Positions 6,485 to 60,136 of a stretch of DNA of 64,000 nucleotides are shown in pieces. Below the pieces are notes generated by a model. It did no database searches. It saw only the letters and a program-made list of their open reading frames with translations, and was not told the DNA's origin. Within the stretch, counting starts at the first letter, position 1, and the number at the start of each line of letters is the position of its first letter. The DNA comes from Octopus sinensis (lineage: Eukaryota): the NCBI RefSeq assembly GCF_006345805.1, contig NC_043007.1, positions 31,992,001 to 32,056,000 on the forward strand, given 5' to 3'. The translations under genes and the position numbers were made by a program.

Positions 6485-7613
6485 CTTGTGAAAGAATAGG
6501 AAAATCCAAAAACTGTCCGATTTGGTAAATTTCCATAGCTTCATCAGCATGAGTGATATGCCCTCTTCCTGCTACCATAGCTTGCACTTCACTAAGACTA
6601 CACGTGCTGGTACTTCCACGCACTATTAAAGATAAATCTACCGAGTCCATATAGATTGCATGCAATAACACACGAGCATACCTCCTTGGAATGACCGATT
6701 CATCAAGCACTATGCGTGTAGGTGTCTGTAATGTCCGTTCAGTGATCTCTTCACCTGATCGCGCACGCCGCAACAGAAGGTTACGGAAGAAAGGAGATCG
6801 CGCAGCCAGAATTGCTTTATGGCATTTAAGTTCGTGTTTTCTTGATGAATGATCTCCTGAACTAGAAGCTTCGGAACTTAAATTTTCCTGGCTTTCGGAA
6901 CCAGTCGTAAATACCAAAGTAGCATCACTGTAGTTACCAGTGTCCAACATCATTCGCAAGTCCTGCTCCAGAGGGTTTGGCATTCCAAACTCATCCGTAA
7001 GCCGCATGATAATCTCATCATTCTCTAACTGAGAACCTTCAAGAATAAATTCTTCAGTGTATAGATATCGTAAAAGAGCAGAGAATAGAGGGACATCAAC
7101 CCCAGGAGTTTTTAATTTGATCGGTACTTGTGCTCCATATTCCTGGAATTGGTTCAATAAATCATGGAAAAATGGACTACGGGCAACAAGAAGGGCTCGA
7201 TGAGCTGGAAAACATGCCCCTCGATAAATCAAATCAACGTCCGTACAGTATTTGTAATCAAAAAGGTTTGAGAGATCTTGACGAATGGAGTTGGCCAACG
7301 GTCGGGCCAAGTTTGCAGCAATGGCAAGTTCCTTAAGAATAGCAGCCGCTTCATATTCCTCTACCAAGCAGCTGAGATCCCGAATAGACCAGCTGCAAGT
7401 TAATTCCCGCAAAGCTTTGGAGTAATCAACTGCTCGACTGTGGCGCCGGACTCTGATCAACTTTTTCCTTAGTGTGGCAAACTTGGACGCTTTCTTTTTC
7501 TTCTCTCGTGCCACCACATCTCCCTCATTGATCACATATCCATGGGACATGCGAGTCAATGTGGAGGATCGAGAAGATGGCTGCAATCGATCGGCTGAAA
7601 CATTGGCACCCAT
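6485..7613 (-). CDS. BTBD7: BTB/POZ domain-containing protein 7, first coding exon (tandem BTB domains); partial CDS continuing beyond the left edge of the window
   Basis: The long ORF reads MGANVS...REKKKKASKFATLRKKLIRVRR...DLSNLFDYKYCTDVDLIYRGACFPAHRALLVARSPFF...HELKCHKAILAARSPFFRNLL...IVLDESVIPRRYARVLLHAIY...EAMEIYQIGQFLDFPILSQG, which I recognise as BTBD7. Splice acceptor tttcattttcag|aaattcc puts the exon start at 7645. ATG 7613 is in atcATGG context. The donor is caag|gtaatt at 6485/6484 (phase 1). Confidence 0.93.
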
Positions 7614-7615
7614 GA

Positions 7616-7633
7616 TCACCTTTTCAGTTCCAT
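7616..7633 (-). promoter_or_regulatory. 5-codon uORF (MELKR*) immediately upstream of the BTBD7 start
   Basis: ATG GAA CTG AAA AGG TGA tc ATG GGT: out of frame, stop 2 nt before the main ATG, inside the coding exon's UTR part. Confidence 0.55.
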
Positions 7634-7787
7634 AGCAAGGAATTTCTGAAAATGAAAAAAAAAAAAAGGTATTATGAATAATAGAAATATCAGAATAAAT
7701 TTCATTTATAAATGTTAACAACCAAAACTTTTAATTTCAAAAAAAAACAAAAGACAAAGCATAAATTTATATATGTATATATATATA

Positions 7788-18342: not shown

Positions 18343-19620
18343 TTAGGTTGTTCCTAAAGTAATGGCCGTGTTTTGAAATGCAATTTTATCATAGTATTTT
18401 GATTATATTTTAGGTGAATTTCGACATACTTAATAACTGATGTATACTCTTTAATGATTTTCTACTTATTTCAGACAGAAAACATTCTTGAAGCACAGGC
18501 GCCCTTAATTATGAATACGACAAAAAAGGGCCTTTGCTAACTTTTCTTGCAGGAGTTCAAGCTAACACACAATGCCTCCCAAACTACTGCCAATATCAAC
18601 AGAGCACGAAGAGAGGGGTCCACAAGTGATCACACAGTACAAAGGCTCTCATCACTACTTCGCACAGTACGAAGTGGTGATGAGAGACTTGAAGATGAAG
18701 AAGGTTAAGGACAGTCATGCAATCTTGACAATGAACAATTGAAAGCAAATGTTGAACAAAACCCAGGTCAAAATGCCAGAGAAATGTCTCAGGCACTTGG
18801 TGTCGGTATTGCAACAGTCTCATGCAATCTGCAGAAGATTGGTAAGATGAAAAAGCCCAATAAATGGGTATTGCATGAGCTCAATAAAAGTCAAAAAGTT
18901 TGGTGTTTTGAAGTGTGGTCAATGCTCTTTCTGCAAAACACCAATGATCCTTTTCTTGACTGAATAGTCACTTGTGACAAAAAGTGGATCTTATATGATA
19001 ACCATAAATGATCAGGTCAACGGTTTAATCGTGATGAGCCCCTCAAACATTTCCCAAAGCCAAAGTTGCATCAGCAAAAGATTATGGTAACTATCTGGTG
19101 GTCTGCAATTGGTGTTGTCCATTACAGCTTTCTGGAATCCAATCAGAGCATTACAGCAGAGGTTTACTGCAGTCAAATCGCTGAAATGCACGTTCACTTG
19201 CAAAATATGAGACCTGCATTGGTGAATCGGTGTGGCCCAATTCTGCTCCATGATAATGCAAAGCCACATGTTGCAAGAATGATGCCGCAGAAACTCACAG
19301 ACTTGTGATATGAGACTTTACCATATCTTCCATATTCTCCTGATTTTTCACCCACTGACTACCATTTTTTTAAAGCATTTAAACAAATTTTTAATTGATA
19401 AAACTTTCAGGTCCAAACCAGAGATGGAATCAGCTTTCAAAGATTTCTTACCATCAAAGCCAATAAGTTTTTATCAATGAGGCATAATCTCATTGATTGA
19501 TGGTAGAGATGCATAGATGTTCACGGCTCATACTGCAACTAATCAAAACATTTCTACTGTTAATTTTTCCAGAATAAAAGTACGTTTCTGAAATCGGTCA
19601 TTATCTTTGGAACAACCAAA
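18343..19620 (+). mobile_element. Full-length (~1.28 kb) decayed mariner transposon
   Basis: TA-flanked imperfect TIRs ttaggttgttcctaaagtaatggccg / cggtcattatctttggaacaaccaaa. Transposase motifs WVLHEL, VTCDKKW, HQQKIMVTIWW, LLHDNAKPH and PYSPDFSPTDY are broken by stops and frameshifts. Confidence 0.92.
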
Positions 19621-48511: not shown

Positions 48512-49397
48512 TTGGACTAGTTTCGTAGCATGCCAACAAATGGCAGCACACTCAAGGTTGCATGTGCAGTGAGAGCTAGCAGTGACCTTAATGAGGTAGT
48601 ATGCCGAGTGACATCGTTGTTTACTTTGCAAGTTGTGAAATTTGTGTTTTTGTGATCATGTGTATGCTGTAGTCTGTGATTTTGTCAAGGACAGGAACAA
48701 AGAGCCGCCATGAAATTTAGGAAGTCTGCTACAGAGACATTGAGCATGCTTTGGTAAGCTTATGACAATGAGGCAATGGACCATACACAATGTTTTGGAT
48801 GGCACGAGCATGCCAAAAGTGGAAGAAAGTCCTTGGAAGCCGATGAGCAATCTGGAAGACCTGCCATAAGCGTCCCCTCCAGAAATGTGGTATTGTGCAT
48901 TGAGAATTCATCCCCCCAGGGCCAGACCGTCAATCAAGAGTTCTACTGTGATGTTTTGAAGCATTTGAGGGGGGACATCTGGTGAAAGCAACCAGATCTG
49001 TGAGTGCACAGAATTGGATTCTTCCCGACAACAATGCACCCTGTCACCGAGCTCTCCTCACTCGTGAGTTTCTTGCCAAAAACATGGTATCATTTCCACA
49101 CCCATCCTGTTTGCCAGATTTAGCACCTGCAGACTTCCATCTCTTCCCCAAGATGAAAAGGCAGCTCAAAGGTCACCATTTTAACACCATTGTCGAGATC
49201 CAGAGCAAATCACAGACGGTCCTCAACTTGCTTATGGAAAATGACTTGCAGGCCGGATTCCAAAAGCTACAGGAATGCTGGGACTGATGTATTGCTGTGG
49301 AAGGTGACTATTTCAAAGGAGATGATGTTAAAACTCAGGTAAATAAGCTATTTTTTATTAAACATAACGAGTCTGGGAACTTTTTGATACCACCTTG
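48512..49397 (+). mobile_element. Decayed, internally deleted mariner-like element (different subfamily)
   Basis: Fragments SGRP, QGQTVNQEFYCDVLKHLR, WILPDNNAPCH and FPHPSCLPDLAPADFHLFPKMK. The right TIR gggaactttttgataccaccttg is followed by TA; the left TIR is truncated. Confidence 0.88.
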
Positions 49398-54239: not shown

Positions 54240-55388
54240 ATGTATGTATGTATCCTCCCACACAAAAACAATAGTAGCTACAAAGAAACAAATACATTTT
54301 CAATAAATTAGTATATTTCTAAGCAACAGTATTTGTGGATCTTGTGTTTCATAACACAACAACACAATAAATAAACCAGACACGCACAACTGTAATTCTG
54401 CCGGAACTCCAGAGAACCGAATTGTTGTGGATTTCCGAAATAGAAGCGGAGATCACTTGGAACAATTTGTACAAAAGTACTTCGTCATTTCAATGTAAAC
54501 AAATGAATGTTTGTGACGAGTGGCACCAGTAGAAAACGAGGAAAGTGCTTAGAATAAATTTAGAAAGAAATTCGAAGTCTGCGACAAGATTTACCGATTT
54601 TATCCCTCTTTGGAAGAATCCTTCAAGATGGATGATGGAAGGAGGCGGCTTGGAGAGAGTTAATAGTTGTGTTGGAAAGAAGGATCAATACTCGCAGACA
54701 AATGGGGAAAAAGGACTAGAATAAATAATATAGATCTTTTTTTTTTTACCATATTCTTCTGTAGATATATTTATGAGGAAACCCAGGTTACAAAAAACGG
54801 AAAACAATTACATAAAGATCTTTGCGCATAGAATATATAATGACATCCAGGATTTTTTTTATAATTAGGAAATTATTTTCCAGATAATTATAAACTGGGA
54901 AAAGAAATATTTCAATATTTCTTGATATTAAATTAAGTGGATTTTATTCTGAACACCTGCCGGTCTAGTTTGATTGTTTTTTTTTTTTCTTCTTTTGGCC
55001 AATAAATACTGGTTTTTATTATTATTCGTTTTCTTTTCTGTATATACTTGTCTATATTTGACAAGACATATACAGAAGTAATTTATTTCAATGTTTAAAT
55101 ATTTAATGAGAATTAAGAAATTACAGAAGTAGTCCGCTTCTATATTAAAGGGGAATACTGAATAACAAATATACACATTATATATATATATGTGTGTATG
55201 TATATATATATTTATATATATGTGTGCGTGTGTATATATATATTTATATATGTGTATATATATATACATATTTATATATGTGTATATATATGTGTGTGTG
55301 TATATATATATATATTTATATGTGTATATATATGTGTGTGTATATATATATTTATATGTGTATATATATATATGTGTATATATATATT

Positions 55389-55419
<31 letters not shown>

Positions 55420-56649
55420 TATATATATTTATATGTGTATATATATTTATATATATATATATATGTGTGTGTATGTATATATATATATATATATATATTT
55501 ATATGTATGTATGTATCCTCCCACACAAAAACAATAGTAGCTACAAAGAAACAAATACATTTTCAATAAATTAGTATATTTCTAAGCAACAGTATTTGTG
55601 GATCTTGTGTTTCATAACACAACAACACAATAAATAAACCAGACACGCACAACTGTAATTCTGCCGGAACTCCAGAGAACCGAATTGTTGTGGATTTCCG
55701 AAATAGAAGCGGAGATCACTTGGAACAATTTGTACAAAAGTACTTCGTCATTTCAATGTAAACAAATGAATGTTTGTGACGAGTGGCACCAGTAGAAAAC
55801 GAGGAAAGTGCTTAGAATAAATTTAGAAAGAAATTCGAAGTCTGCGACAAGATTTACCGATTTTATCCCTCTTTGGAAGAATCCTTCAAGATGGATGATG
55901 GAAGGAGGCGGCTTGGAGAGAGTTAATAGTTGTGTTGGAAAGAAGGATCAATACTCGCAGACAAATGGGGAAAAAGGACTAGAATAAATAATATAGATCT
56001 TTTTTTTTTTACCATATTCTTCTGTAGATATATTTATGAGGAAACCCAGGTTACAAAAAACGGAAAACAATTACATAAAGATCTTTGCGCATAGAATATA
56101 TAATGACATCCAGGATTTTTTTTATAATTAGGAAATTATTTTCCAGATAATTATAAACTGGGAAAAGAAATATTTCAATATTTCTTGATATTAAATTAAG
56201 TGGATTTTATTCTGAACACCTGCCGGTCTAGTTTGATTGTTTTTTTTTTTTCTTCTTTTGGCCAATAAATACTGGTTTTTATTATTATTCGTTTTCTTTT
56301 CTGTATATACTTGTCTATATTTGACAAGACATATACAGAAGTAATTTATTTCAATGTTTAAATATTTAATGAGAATTAAGAAATTACAGAAGTAGTCCGC
56401 TTCTATATTAAAGGGGAATACTGAATAACAAATATACACATTATATATATATATGTGTGTATGTATATATATATTTATATATATGTGTGCGTGTGTATAT
56501 ATATATTTATATATGTGTATATATATATATATTTATATATGTGTATATATATGTGTGTGTGTATATATATATATATTTATATGTGTATATATATGTGTGT
56601 GTATATATATATTTATATGTGTATATATATATATGTGTATATATATATT

Positions 56650-56880: not shown

Positions 56881-57683
56881 TGTATATTGAATTTCTTGTA
56901 ATGAATTATAAAATAATTAGGGTATTTAATATCAAGGGATACACATCAACTGCTTAGTTTAAATAAATAAGGAACTGACATTGACAAAAAAGAAATTTCC
57001 ACACAATGACTGGGTAGTAATTTTTGTTCACCACCATGATATTAGGGTTAGTAATAATGAGTCGATGTGGCAGAATTAGGTTTATTTAACCCCTGAGAAC
57101 GACGAATAGGAAGGGAAAATGAAAAATCGATGGAGACGTGCACTTAATAACTAGGGAAGGCCCGGCGCCAAGGTGGAGGAAGGAAGGAGCCGCCGAGGGG
57201 AAAAGAAGTTGATAGCAGAAATTGGGGGCGGTGAGGTTACTATAATGAAAGGAATAACAATCTGCCCTTTAAAAAAATATCTGAGGCGCAGATTTTTCAC
57301 ATAGTTTGATGTGAGAATCTGCGCTATTATAAAATGATACAACATAGCAACGGAATAAATGGTTTTTAGGCGATCTCGAACGGTAAATGACATATAATGA
57401 GGGATCAGTGTGATAGAGTGTGTTCGTTGCAAAGTGCTCCCTCATTTCCTCAATGGGCTCCCAATTAATTATTGTCATTAAAACAAACAAAATAATTAAA
57501 ATACTGATCTGTTCCTTTCTTTTAATAACAAAAAAAGGCCTGAAATATTTTATTGCAAAGATCATTAATAATAATAATAATAATAAGTGAGAGAGTAAAA
57601 ACGTAGCTGAGGTTTCTATTTTTTTTTTTGTTGAGAAAATATAATAAATAGAAATATTCTATAATACCGACGGAAAATACTTG

Positions 57684-57838
57684 GTGTGTGTGTGTGTTTG
57701 TGCGCGTGTGTGCGTGTGTGTGGGTGTGTTTCTGTGTGTATTTGTGTGCGTGTGTTTGTGTGTGCGTGTGTGTGTGTGTGTGTGTATTTGTGTGCGTGTG
57801 TGTGTGTATATTTGTGTGTGGGTGTGTGTGTGTGTGCT

Positions 57839-57871
<33 letters not shown>
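57684..57871. repeat. Imperfect (GT)n microsatellite just inside the candidate first intron
   Basis: Directly visible. Confidence 0.95.
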
Positions 57872-57873
<2 letters not shown>

Positions 57874-57973
57874 GGTATATTACTTCAAAGGCGAAAGCTA
57901 TGAAGAAACAAAACAAGAAATAACAACAGAAAACATTGTAGATCTATAAAATATTATTATTGGTATTACTTAC

Positions 57974-58565
57974 CAAGTTTAGATTGCGGTATTCCTGGCC
58001 GTGGTTCAGTAACAGTTCCACCACGAGATGGTAAAAAAAAAGGACTTTGTTGTATATAGAAAAAAAAGACAGTCTGATGTGAAAATTAAGGTGGGGATGT
58101 AGCAACGAGCACTGCTCGGATTTCGATTTGGTCTCTAATATAAAGTAGCAGGTTAATTCCAGTTCATAATATTCGAGCTGAGAGATTAGGTGAGTATTTC
58201 GGCAATTTCAGGCTTTAATAATTACATTGACAGCGGTTCATTTCCTCTTTCAATCTGCGAGGAAGGAGAGTTGTAGGGGTCATGAAGCTGTCAGACAGTC
58301 GCAGGGGTTTATCAACAGCCAGCCACAGACCAACGCACGAAATCGGCAAAAACATCTTCTCTGAGGCATTCGTAAACCAGAGACAGGTCCGTGCAACAGC
58401 CACAGACGTTCCCATCACCGTCAGCCATTTTTCTGTTTACTTGTAGTTTCTTCTTTCCCTTTTTGGCCAAACTCTCTCCCTGCCGTTAAGATGTTGCTTT
58501 TTTCTATTTTACTTTTGCTTTTAGCTAGAGTTCCCCCTCAACTCTAATCACAACTATCACCCACT
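57974..58565 (-). other. Candidate first (leader) exon of BTBD7
   Basis: Repeat-free, CpG-retaining island ending in a consensus donor ttg|GTAAGT (57974/57973) on the BTBD7 strand. An Inr-like TCAGT lies at ~58565 and a YY1-like AAAATGGC at ~58430. Splicing to the 7645 acceptor is inferred, not shown. Confidence 0.5.
58312..58428 (-). CDS. Candidate 38-aa small ORF/uORF MADGDGNVCGCCTDLSLVYECLREDVFADFVRWSVAGC
   Basis: Translated by hand (below the ORF-track length cutoff). Strong Kozak context aaaATGG, complex composition, tandem TGA TAA stops, located within the candidate leader exon. Confidence 0.4.
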   Translation of the reverse strand: MADGDGNVCGCCTDLSLVYECLREDVFADFVRWSVAGC

Positions 58566-58640
58566 GAGTCGGCAGTCAGCAGCAAATGAACAGATATAAA
58601 TATGTCAACTATTTGACATATAAATATGTCAACTATTTAC
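58560..58640 (-). promoter_or_regulatory. Candidate core promoter with a 21-bp direct repeat and TATA-like/TGACA motifs
   Basis: ATATAAATATGTCAACTATTT occurs at 58594-58614 and 58618-58638. TATTTATA (minus strand) lies ~30-37 bp upstream of the Inr-like TCAGT at 58565. Confidence 0.35.
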
Positions 58641-60136
58641 TCGTGAGTCCAAAATGATATTAAAAAAAAAGAAGGTTCGAATAAATGGTTTTATGTAGAT
58701 CTATAAGTAAATCTTTACGCTATTTATTAATTTACACGCAAAATAATATCCGTTATTATTCTTTATACATTAATCATAGCGACCGGAAAAGGAAAATATT
58801 CAGCCCGAGATTATCAATAAGAGCAGACATTAATAAAAACTTCTTTGCAATCAAGGTGAAACTTCGGTTCCTGTGAACAATGTCTGTTCTATTAAGAAAC
58901 AGTGTACGGCAGTCTTTATTAATGGCTCAGAAACATGCTGCTCCCAAAGCCAGTCTTATATCAGGACCTCCAAGAGTCAAAATTTCAAAAGTGGTAAGTT
59001 TTAATCCATCTCTGAACGCCCCGCTTTGCTTTCAAATTGCGACAGGTCATTGTTTGAAGGACACCGAACGGAATGGGGAGAATATTGGGGGGAAAAAAAA
59101 CCCAGATTATTAAATATTTCTTCGTTAACAATTGGGTAAAGCATTCTTTAATAATAGAATTAATCAATTTAGGACTTTTCTTTTCATCTTATTTCTTAAT
59201 CTACCCGTTTAATACCAGGGTCAACGCGGATGTTCCACACAGTGAATATATTCCAAAATTTTCATTCAAATTCAGTTTATTTTTACTAAAACTGTTGTTT
59301 AATGTTTTGGATCTTTATTTAAGCAATATTCTCTAATTCATCTTTGATCTTTTCATTATTTAACTTCGTATAATTTTACAGTTGAAAATCCTTTTGTTTC
59401 TAAGGTGAAAATATAAACCACTGCATCCACCTCGGCTCATTTTCACATCATTTCCTCATTCCTTGGGCTGTAATAATAATTTTTTCTTATCTATGGATGT
59501 TAATATGCAATTGAAAATTTTGATATCTAGATAATATGAATAAATAAAAATTAAGAAATTCTGAAACGGGACACTGGTTCGTTAATGTGAAAGGGCGATC
59601 GCCTTGTAAAAAAAGGGAAGTTGCTAAACCTATTTGATGTGTCCGTTTGTAGTTTGTTTTTAAAAATAAACTAATTATAATAATATCACAAATAGTCTTT
59701 CAGTTGAATAAACGGTGGGTATTTTCTGAATGTTGATTTTGGTCCTAATCCTTTCCAAAGCAAGGTTTTATTTGAAGGGCATCAGTCAGTTTATAGTGTT
59801 GCTGTTATCCAAGGCTCCGACGCTTTTCTTTCAAATGTGTCGCAGAATCGACATCAATCGCCAATCGAGGCACTTTTTTCGTTAGAGAAGCGCTCGAAGC
59901 TGTGTCTCATAAAAATAGTAACAGACACAAATGGTCGACACTGTTTTTTTTTTTATTCTTTATTTTTAGAGGAACTCAAACGATGTCCAAACACGACAAA
60001 CACGTGGAAGCATTTGAAGAATATATTTTAGCGTCGCCCTACACGTGACTTAGTGACAGAACCATTCTTTATTCATTTCCGGTTGTATTAATTCTTATTT
60101 TTTTAAATCATTCGGAAACCAAACGTAAAGTTCCAA

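What the first reader, a model, noticed from the sequence alone, without database searches (positions are those of the whole stretch)
58312..58428. Cys-rich 38-aa microprotein/uORF in the putative BTBD7 leader exon
Seen: the first ATG after the Inr-like site is in strong context (aaaATGG) and opens MADGDGNVCGCCTDLSLVYECLREDVFADFVRWSVAGC*. This non-repetitive peptide has a CGCC cluster, an amphipathic-helix-like LREDVFADFVRW segment and a terminal Cys. It lies in a repeat-free, CpG-retaining island upstream of a perfect GTAAGT donor. Inference: the BTBD7 mRNA could be functionally bicistronic (microprotein plus BTB adaptor) or under peptide-dependent uORF control. I do not recognise the peptide, and it is shorter than the ORF-track cutoff.
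Basis: partly seen in the sequence, partly recalled or inferred. Interest (0 to 1): 0.75.

Follow-up and report, generated by a model that had tools for sequence, protein, structure and literature searches.

The report
Real BTBD7 uORF, microprotein function unproven
This octopus gene's front exon is really spliced onto the BTBD7-type coding exon and carries a 38-codon upstream reading frame that is kept in one relative, but its peptide changes as fast as the non-coding DNA beside it, so it likely just dampens BTBD7 production rather than making a functional microprotein.

Summary
The ORF is real: 58428-58312, minus strand, strong start context, single copy. The exon holding it is spliced 57974->7645 onto the BTB coding exon in 4 of 8 runs laid. 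One homologue was found among 1.84 billion proteins: 27 of 38 residues identical, with the same start, stop and frame. The translated upstream flank of that homologue is as well conserved: 7 of 36 codons changed, against 10 of 36 in the uORF (rate ratio 1.5, 95% CI 0.6-4.2). So peptide-level selection is not shown. Weak hints for it remain: conservative replacements (p about 0.03), codon periodicity (p 0.03) and an in-frame gap. The Cys richness and the amphipathic helix do not exceed shuffles. The uORF is one of 9-10 upstream AUGs, in a leader that shares a bidirectional promoter with a COX8-like gene. Best reading: an ordinary, likely translated, repressive uORF (0.65). A conserved-peptide uORF or microprotein is not excluded (0.2). 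Ka/Ks could not be computed because no DNA of the homologue was obtainable.

The parts
58312..58428 (-). 38-codon uORF (first strong-context AUG of the leader), followed by a second in-frame stop at 58311-58309
   Evidence: homologue P0003 with the same start, stop and frame
57974..58647 (-). First (leader) exon of the BTB gene; 3' end exact, 5' end approximate (58567-58657 candidates)
   Evidence: contig pieces and loose ends; Inr-like words
57968..57973 (-). Splice donor GTAAGT of the 50.3-kb first intron (57973-7646)
   Evidence: loose ends at 57974 equal exon 2
6487..7645 (-). Exon 2: 32 nt of leader, then the main AUG at 7613 and 375 codons with two BTB stretches (likely BTBD7)
   Evidence: Pfam BTB E 1.6e-22; Atlas hits include a BTBD7 cluster at 0.88; weak BACK match in a downstream exon
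7616..7633 (-). 5-codon uORF in strong context whose stop ends 2 nt before the main AUG
   Evidence: present in all four spliced loose ends
58215..58415 (-). Overlapping 66-codon uORF in another frame (also G-3/G+4 context), with internal AUGs at 58355, 58283, 58241; further small uORFs start at 58369, 58227, 58167 and 58619
   Evidence: no homologue found for this frame
58429..58551 (-). AUG-free, A-rich leader upstream of the uORF; homologous in P0003 with two frame-shifting indel sites; used as the internal control
58594..58638 (.). 21-nt direct repeat with 24-nt spacing and internal inverted repeats, in the shared promoter
58780..58993 (+). Exon of the divergent COX8-like gene (AUG 58880, donor GT at 58994); also receives + strand splices from donors at 58190 and 58643 that lie inside the BTBD7 leader
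   Evidence: joints and loose ends; splice sites; next exon at L002:3354 matches Pfam COX8 at E 0.007, below the curated cut-off

Best explanation
The 38-codon frame is an upstream ORF in a leader exon that is spliced onto the BTB (likely BTBD7) coding exon; it is likely translated and likely lowers BTBD7 output by capturing scanning ribosomes, whatever its peptide sequence. Shown: the ORF, the splice, 9-10 upstream AUGs in the spliced leader, 370 nt between the uORF stop and the main AUG, and a last 5-codon uORF ending 2 nt before the main AUG. Inferred: most ribosomes start at 58428 (A-3, G+4, after an AUG-free stretch). BTBD7 is then made only by ribosomes that leak past or reinitiate and also bypass the later AUGs. 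Selection, if any, would act on having a start, an open frame and a stop here, and on leader/promoter DNA shared with COX8, not on the residues.
For: Splice to exon 2 in 4 of 8 runs laid, from 4 studies; the genome-sized run X19 runs on unspliced. Uniform contigs of X7 and X14 run from the BTB exon through the uORF. Start, stop and frame are kept in P0003. Replacement rate uORF/flank is 1.54 (95% CI 0.59-4.2), and a ratio of 0.5 is rejected at p=0.02. Ten replacements is what neutral change at 0.10-0.15 per site gives (means 6.7-9.7). Codon choice is not like the BTB exon's (P=0.93). Cys count and hydrophobic moment are within shuffles. No deeper homologue was found. About 43% of fly genes have upstream AUGs, whereas conserved-peptide uORFs occur in about 0.3% of transcripts (PMC2276209, abstract and section 5 part 1), so the prior favours an ordinary uORF.
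Against: Replacements are more conservative than neutral simulation (mean BLOSUM62 +0.1 against -0.9, p 0.024-0.036), while the flank's are not (p 0.42-0.63). Changes cluster in the middle (p 0.04). Position-specific base bias is present (p 0.03). The only gap in the ORF is in frame, while the flank has two frameshifting sites. The flank is not a neutral yardstick: it is shared promoter/leader DNA, my alignment of it allowed free frameshifts, and I dropped 10 of its 46 residues. All of this pushes the ratio up. Translation itself and repression are not shown.
Confidence: 0.65

Rival explanations
1. Conserved-peptide uORF or bicistronic microprotein of limited (octopod or coleoid) range: the 38-residue peptide is under moderate purifying selection and either stalls the ribosome in cis or acts as a small Cys-cluster/helix protein.
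For: Start, stop and frame kept; this would happen in 30-44% of neutral simulations before counting indels. In-frame gap. Conservative replacements, p about 0.03. Invariant ends: 12 of the first 14 and 11 of the last 13 body codons unchanged. Periodicity p 0.03. Double stop. 0 of 6 close-relative variants fall in the uORF (P=0.32). The leader may be more constrained than the COX8 intron (3/674 against 3-5/171, p 0.10-0.01, from a contig of depth 2.4), which would make the flank an underestimate of neutral change.
Against: No lower replacement rate than the flank. The homologue was found by a protein search, which can only return open frames. About ten statistics were tried and none of the p values near 0.03 survives correction. 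The Cys pattern is not fixed. No family, fold or Atlas hit. The human Ribo-seq catalogue in PMC10032668 lists no BTBD7 ORF although it lists chr14 neighbours.
Confidence: 0.2
2. The ORF is a by-product of a GC/TG-rich patch in conserved promoter-leader DNA and is of little regulatory consequence: other AUGs or start sites matter, or much RNA over this patch belongs to antisense COX8 leaders.
For: Three frames are open over this patch: 38 and 73 codons on the minus strand, 71 on the plus strand. Half of leader shuffles contain an ORF this long. + strand spliced leaders from 58189 and 58642 into COX8 exist, and in X1 the uORF-bearing contig joins COX8 rather than BTBD7. The contigs are unstranded.
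Against: In X7 and X14 an unbroken contig links the uORF to the BTB exon. By the scanning model (established knowledge), a strong first AUG is hard to skip. Start and stop are kept in P0003.
Confidence: 0.15

Closest known systems
Sequence-independent AUG uORFs of animal 5' leaders (about 43% of Drosophila genes have upstream AUGs; PMC2276209 section 5 part 1)
   Same: AUG-initiated short frame wholly inside a spliced leader, several such frames, main AUG downstream
   Different: The first strong uORF is relatively long (38 codons) and is positionally kept in a relative; the leader overlaps antisense COX8 leaders
Conserved-peptide uORFs (CPuORFs; PMC2276209; ESUCA, PMC7530721 passages)
   Same: Length in range (15-179 aa in the fly table), homologous uORF with the same start and stop, not fused to the main ORF in the junction seen here
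   Different: Ka/Ks below 0.5 and conservation in two or more other orders are not shown; the replacement rate is not below that of the flank
Bicistronic mRNAs with a leader-encoded microprotein (e.g. MOCS2, named in PMC2276209 section 5; ASDURF/ASNSD1 recalled, no call)
   Same: Small ORF in the first exon, large ORF starting in exon 2
   Different: Those peptides are conserved across distant taxa and match protein families; this one has a single close homologue and no family or fold match

Membership tests
uORF | AUG-to-stop frame upstream of the main AUG on the same spliced mRNA | tested here: met
   splice 57974->7645; unbroken contigs in X7 and X14 (strand not shown by contigs)
uORF | Translated by ribosomes | not testable with these tools
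   no Ribo-seq or proteomics available; strong context only
uORF | Represses or gates main-ORF translation | not testable with these tools
   needs a reporter assay
CPuORF | Homologous uORF upstream of the homologous main ORF in other taxa (two or more other orders in ESUCA) | tested here: inconclusive
   one homologue of unknown organism; its link to BTBD7 is inferred from the homologous flank only; none further
CPuORF | Ka/Ks significantly below 0.5 | not testable with these tools
   no DNA for P0003; close-relative runs have 0 differences in the uORF
CPuORF | Peptide conserved beyond surrounding nucleotide conservation (proxy test against the flank) | tested here: not met
   10/36 against 7/36 codons changed, ratio 1.54 (0.59-4.2); the flank may itself be constrained, and conservative replacements point the other way
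CPuORF | Not an alternative coding exon fused to the main ORF | tested here: met
   stop lies 338 nt before the donor and in another frame than the main AUG; fused forms above 146 aa in other species were covered only by the 50% representative search
Known microprotein families | Sequence or fold match | tested here: not met
   Pfam 0 families; Atlas best 0.80, chance level, none for the homologue; PDB sequence E>=0.9; Foldseek E 6.8 on a low-confidence model
BTBD7 (main ORF) | Two BTB domains followed by BACK | tested here: inconclusive
   two BTB stretches; BACK E 0.004, under cut-off, in 1 of 2 downstream exons scanned; BTBD7 cluster at 0.88; orthology by tree not tested

The most novel reading that the evidence does not exclude
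BTBD7 mRNA of octopods is bicistronic: a lineage-restricted 38-residue Cys-cluster/helix microprotein under moderate purifying selection is encoded in a leader that lies antisense to COX8 leaders at a shared promoter. It would be a cephalopod conserved-peptide uORF that my searches found in no paper.
Probability: 0.2. Interest if true: 0.55.

Novelty: new member of a known kind. Interest (0 to 1): 0.3.

Why it matters
As an ordinary uORF it adds little: it marks BTBD7, a regulator of branching morphogenesis and E-cadherin in vertebrates (search listing abstracts of PMC10102955 and PMC4189533), as a likely translationally dampened gene in octopus. If Ka/Ks proved low, it would be a young, lineage-restricted microprotein or peptide-dependent uORF in cephalopods. 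My searches found no paper with both BTBD7 and uORF (0), and no cephalopod uORF study among the 15 listed. The head-to-head BTBD7-COX8 arrangement with overlapping antisense leaders may be the more durable observation.

Tried and rejected
No RNA holder listed on record; the runs used are guessed RNA or unlabelled. 57000-57923 had no cover in 4 of 4 runs, and X20 and X24 did not cover the leader; none of this is used as evidence. Protein word-index searches: the 40-residue frame gave no candidates; the two-row alignment gave only P0003 among 28 candidates; the overlapping 73-codon frame gave none. P0002 and P0004 are long repeat proteins matched by composition and were rejected. Metagenome contigs: 599 pattern stretches, 0 confirmed; C-terminal pattern 0. 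Own genome: only the locus itself; the other 6 matches had E 0.58-9. Rfam: 3 matches at E 1.2-4.5, far below gathering scores. RNA fold of 58290-58450: z -0.18. AlphaFold model of low confidence (pLDDT 65, pTM 0.35), Foldseek nothing. An N-terminal extension of BTBD7 was rejected (stop before the donor, other frame). Amphipathic helix and Cys richness were rejected as special. Earlier findings by place, sequence and BTBD7/COX8 words: none. The supplement of PMC7530721 (animal CPuORF lists) could not be read and might list a vertebrate BTBD7 uORF; its main text has 0 occurrences. The paper id tried is not held. No complex prediction was run, as no binding is claimed.

Full report
Observation. 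Window 58428-58312 on the minus strand translates to the 38 residues given. It starts in AAAATGG context and ends TGA TAA. The stretch is single-copy in the genome by DNA and by profile (the locus at E 6e-35, six others at E 0.58-9).

Transcript. Eight public runs were laid, none on record as RNA. Four of them (X1, X15, X7, X14; four studies) have a loose end at 57974. Its 30 letters equal the start of the exon at 7645 (printed): 30/30 in X1 and X15, 29/30 in X7 and X14 (compared by eye). X5 stops at 57974 with 7 unlaid letters. X20 and X24 do not cover the leader. The genome-sized run X19 continues unspliced from 57881 to 59500. In X7 and X14 one contig runs from the BTB exon through the uORF to 58647 and 58595. 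Contigs are unstranded and give no start site. These ends also flank a 24-nt-spaced repeat with hairpins, so they may not be true 5' ends.

Main gene. Exon 2 opens 375 codons from 7613 with two BTB stretches. A downstream exon gives a weak BACK match (1 of 2 exons scanned). Atlas neighbours include a BTBD7 cluster at 0.88. The name BTBD7 is likely, not proven by a tree.

Leader anatomy. From 58647, the spliced leader is 706 nt and has 10 upstream AUGs, 9 in exon 1 and 1 in exon 2. The 58428 AUG is the first in strong context. A 66-codon frame starts 13 nt later, also with G-3/G+4. Its own stop is at 58215. The last uORF (7633, 5 codons, strong context) stops 2 nt before the main AUG. The 38-codon uORF stops 370 nt before the main AUG and is in another frame, so it is not an N-terminal extension.

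Surroundings. A divergent gene lies on the plus strand: AUG 58880, donor 58994, next exon at L002:3354, which matches Pfam COX8 at E 0.007, under the cut-off. Two + strand splices into 58780 come from donors at 58190 (X15) and 58643 (X1). Some COX8 leaders therefore begin inside the BTBD7 leader and overlap it antisense. In X1 the uORF-bearing contig is joined to COX8.

Chance. In 3000 dinucleotide shuffles of each of three leader lengths, 46-53% hold an ATG ORF of 38 codons or more and 7-9% hold one in strong context. Only 0.7-0.9% have it first, strong and that long; this last criterion is post hoc. Cys count P=0.23 and Cys cluster P=0.058. Hydrophobic moment P=0.17. Position-specific base bias P=0.03, but likeness to the BTB exon's positional bias P=0.31 and to its codon choice P=0.93 (the training set is that one exon). 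RNA folding z=-0.18.

Homologue. phmmer over 1.84 billion representatives gave 3 hits at E<=0.001. Two are long repeat proteins. P0003 (83 aa, Logan, one contig, organism not given) has 27 of 38 residues identical, the same Met, the same last residue and a one-codon gap. Its first 46 residues are a gene caller's read-through of upstream leader. They align to window 58551-58429 across two frame-shifting sites, so it is very likely the orthologous leader. That it precedes BTBD7 is inferred. No further homologue was found.

Selection test by proxy. No DNA of P0003 was obtainable, so I compared codons whose residue changed. Flank: 7 of 36 (residues 1, 8 and 25-32 dropped as start or indel zone). 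uORF: 10 of 36 (start codon and gap codon dropped). Fisher p=0.58. The rate ratio is 1.54 (95% CI 0.59-4.2); ratios of 0.5, 0.3 and 0.2 are rejected at p 0.02, 0.001 and 5e-5. Neutral simulation at 0.095-0.146 changes per site gives 6.7-9.7 replacements and keeps start, open frame and stop in 30-44% of runs, indels not modelled. The protein search could only find open frames.

Results against my reading. Replacements are more conservative than neutral (p 0.024-0.036; flank 0.42-0.63) and cluster centrally (p 0.04). The ORF's gap is in frame. The flank is promoter DNA aligned with free frameshifts and may be constrained. Close-relative contigs show 3 differences in 674 leader bases against 3-5 in 171 COX8 intron bases (p 0.10-0.01, depth 2.4, possibly errors). 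If true neutral divergence were 0.3-0.5, Ka/Ks could be 0.3-0.5. Of 6 variant sites in the leader among close relatives, none lies in the uORF (P=0.32). About ten statistics were tried, and the three near p 0.03 do not survive correction.

Structure. AlphaFold on the two-row alignment gives helices 15-21 and 24-37 at mean pLDDT 65 and pTM 0.35. There is no fold, PDB, Pfam or Atlas match.

Mechanism. Most likely, scanning ribosomes initiate at 58428, translate 38 codons and mostly leave. BTBD7 is made by the fraction that leaks or reinitiates and also bypasses later AUGs, notably the one ending 2 nt before the main start. That long uORFs reinitiate poorly is recalled, not checked. [quoted passage not shown] Translation and repression are inferred, not shown.

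Literature. BTBD7 + uORF: 0 papers. A six-term search listed 30 papers, none with BTBD7. BTBD7 + COX8: 2 papers; in the one I searched, both names stand only in a gene list (PMC6834745 passages). The human Ribo-seq catalogue in supplement file 2 of PMC10032668 has no BTBD7 row but has MOAP1 and TMEM251 on chr14 (supplement searches). CPuORF criteria are from PMC7530721 (passages; supplement unreadable) and PMC2276209 (abstract and section 5 part 1). PMC10102955 was searched by passage for 5' leader data, and none was found.

Verdict. A real uORF in a real spliced leader, kept in one relative; most likely ordinary and repressive (0.65). A conserved-peptide uORF or microprotein is possible (0.2), and an inconsequential by-product less likely (0.15). 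New member of a known kind; interest 0.3.

Noticed in passing
window 58780-58993 (+) and L002:3354-3449 (+): A two-coding-exon COX8-like gene (69 codons) lies head-to-head with the BTBD7-like gene, about 130 nt from its leader. Human COX8C is recalled to lie next to the BTBD7 promoter; PMC6834745 only shows both in one chr14 interval list. This may be an old bilaterian microsynteny.
   Followed up: partly
window 58160-58189 and 58082-58642 (+), spliced to 58780: Alternative COX8 leaders start inside the BTBD7 first exon (GT..AG joints in X15 and X1), giving sense-antisense overlap over the uORF. One variant would carry a 54-codon + strand ORF from 58282.
   Followed up: partly
window 7633-7616 (-): A 5-codon uORF in strong context ends 2 nt before the main AUG and is present in all four spliced loose ends; it may matter more for BTBD7 output than the 38-codon one.
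   Followed up: partly
window 58594-58638: A 21-nt direct repeat with 24-nt spacing, each copy with a TATAAA word on the + strand and internal inverted repeats, in the shared promoter; contig ends of three runs fall at or near its edges.
   Followed up: no
window 7613-7599 (-): The main ORF begins with Met-Gly and has Ser at position 6, the pattern recalled for N-myristoylation; not tested.
   Followed up: no
window about 54500-55430 and 55750-56530: Identical translated frames occur twice 1263 nt apart (54533/55796): a tandem duplication or an assembly artefact in intron 1.
   Followed up: no
window about 18700-19480 and 48750-49340 (+): Broken frames resembling mariner/Tc1 transposases (recalled motifs) in intron 1.
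   Followed up: no
window 58965-59500 (+/-): Run X15 has contigs across the promoter (58160-58806) and into COX8 intron 1 (depth 22-36): unspliced COX8 RNA or a longer BTBD7 leader.
   Followed up: no
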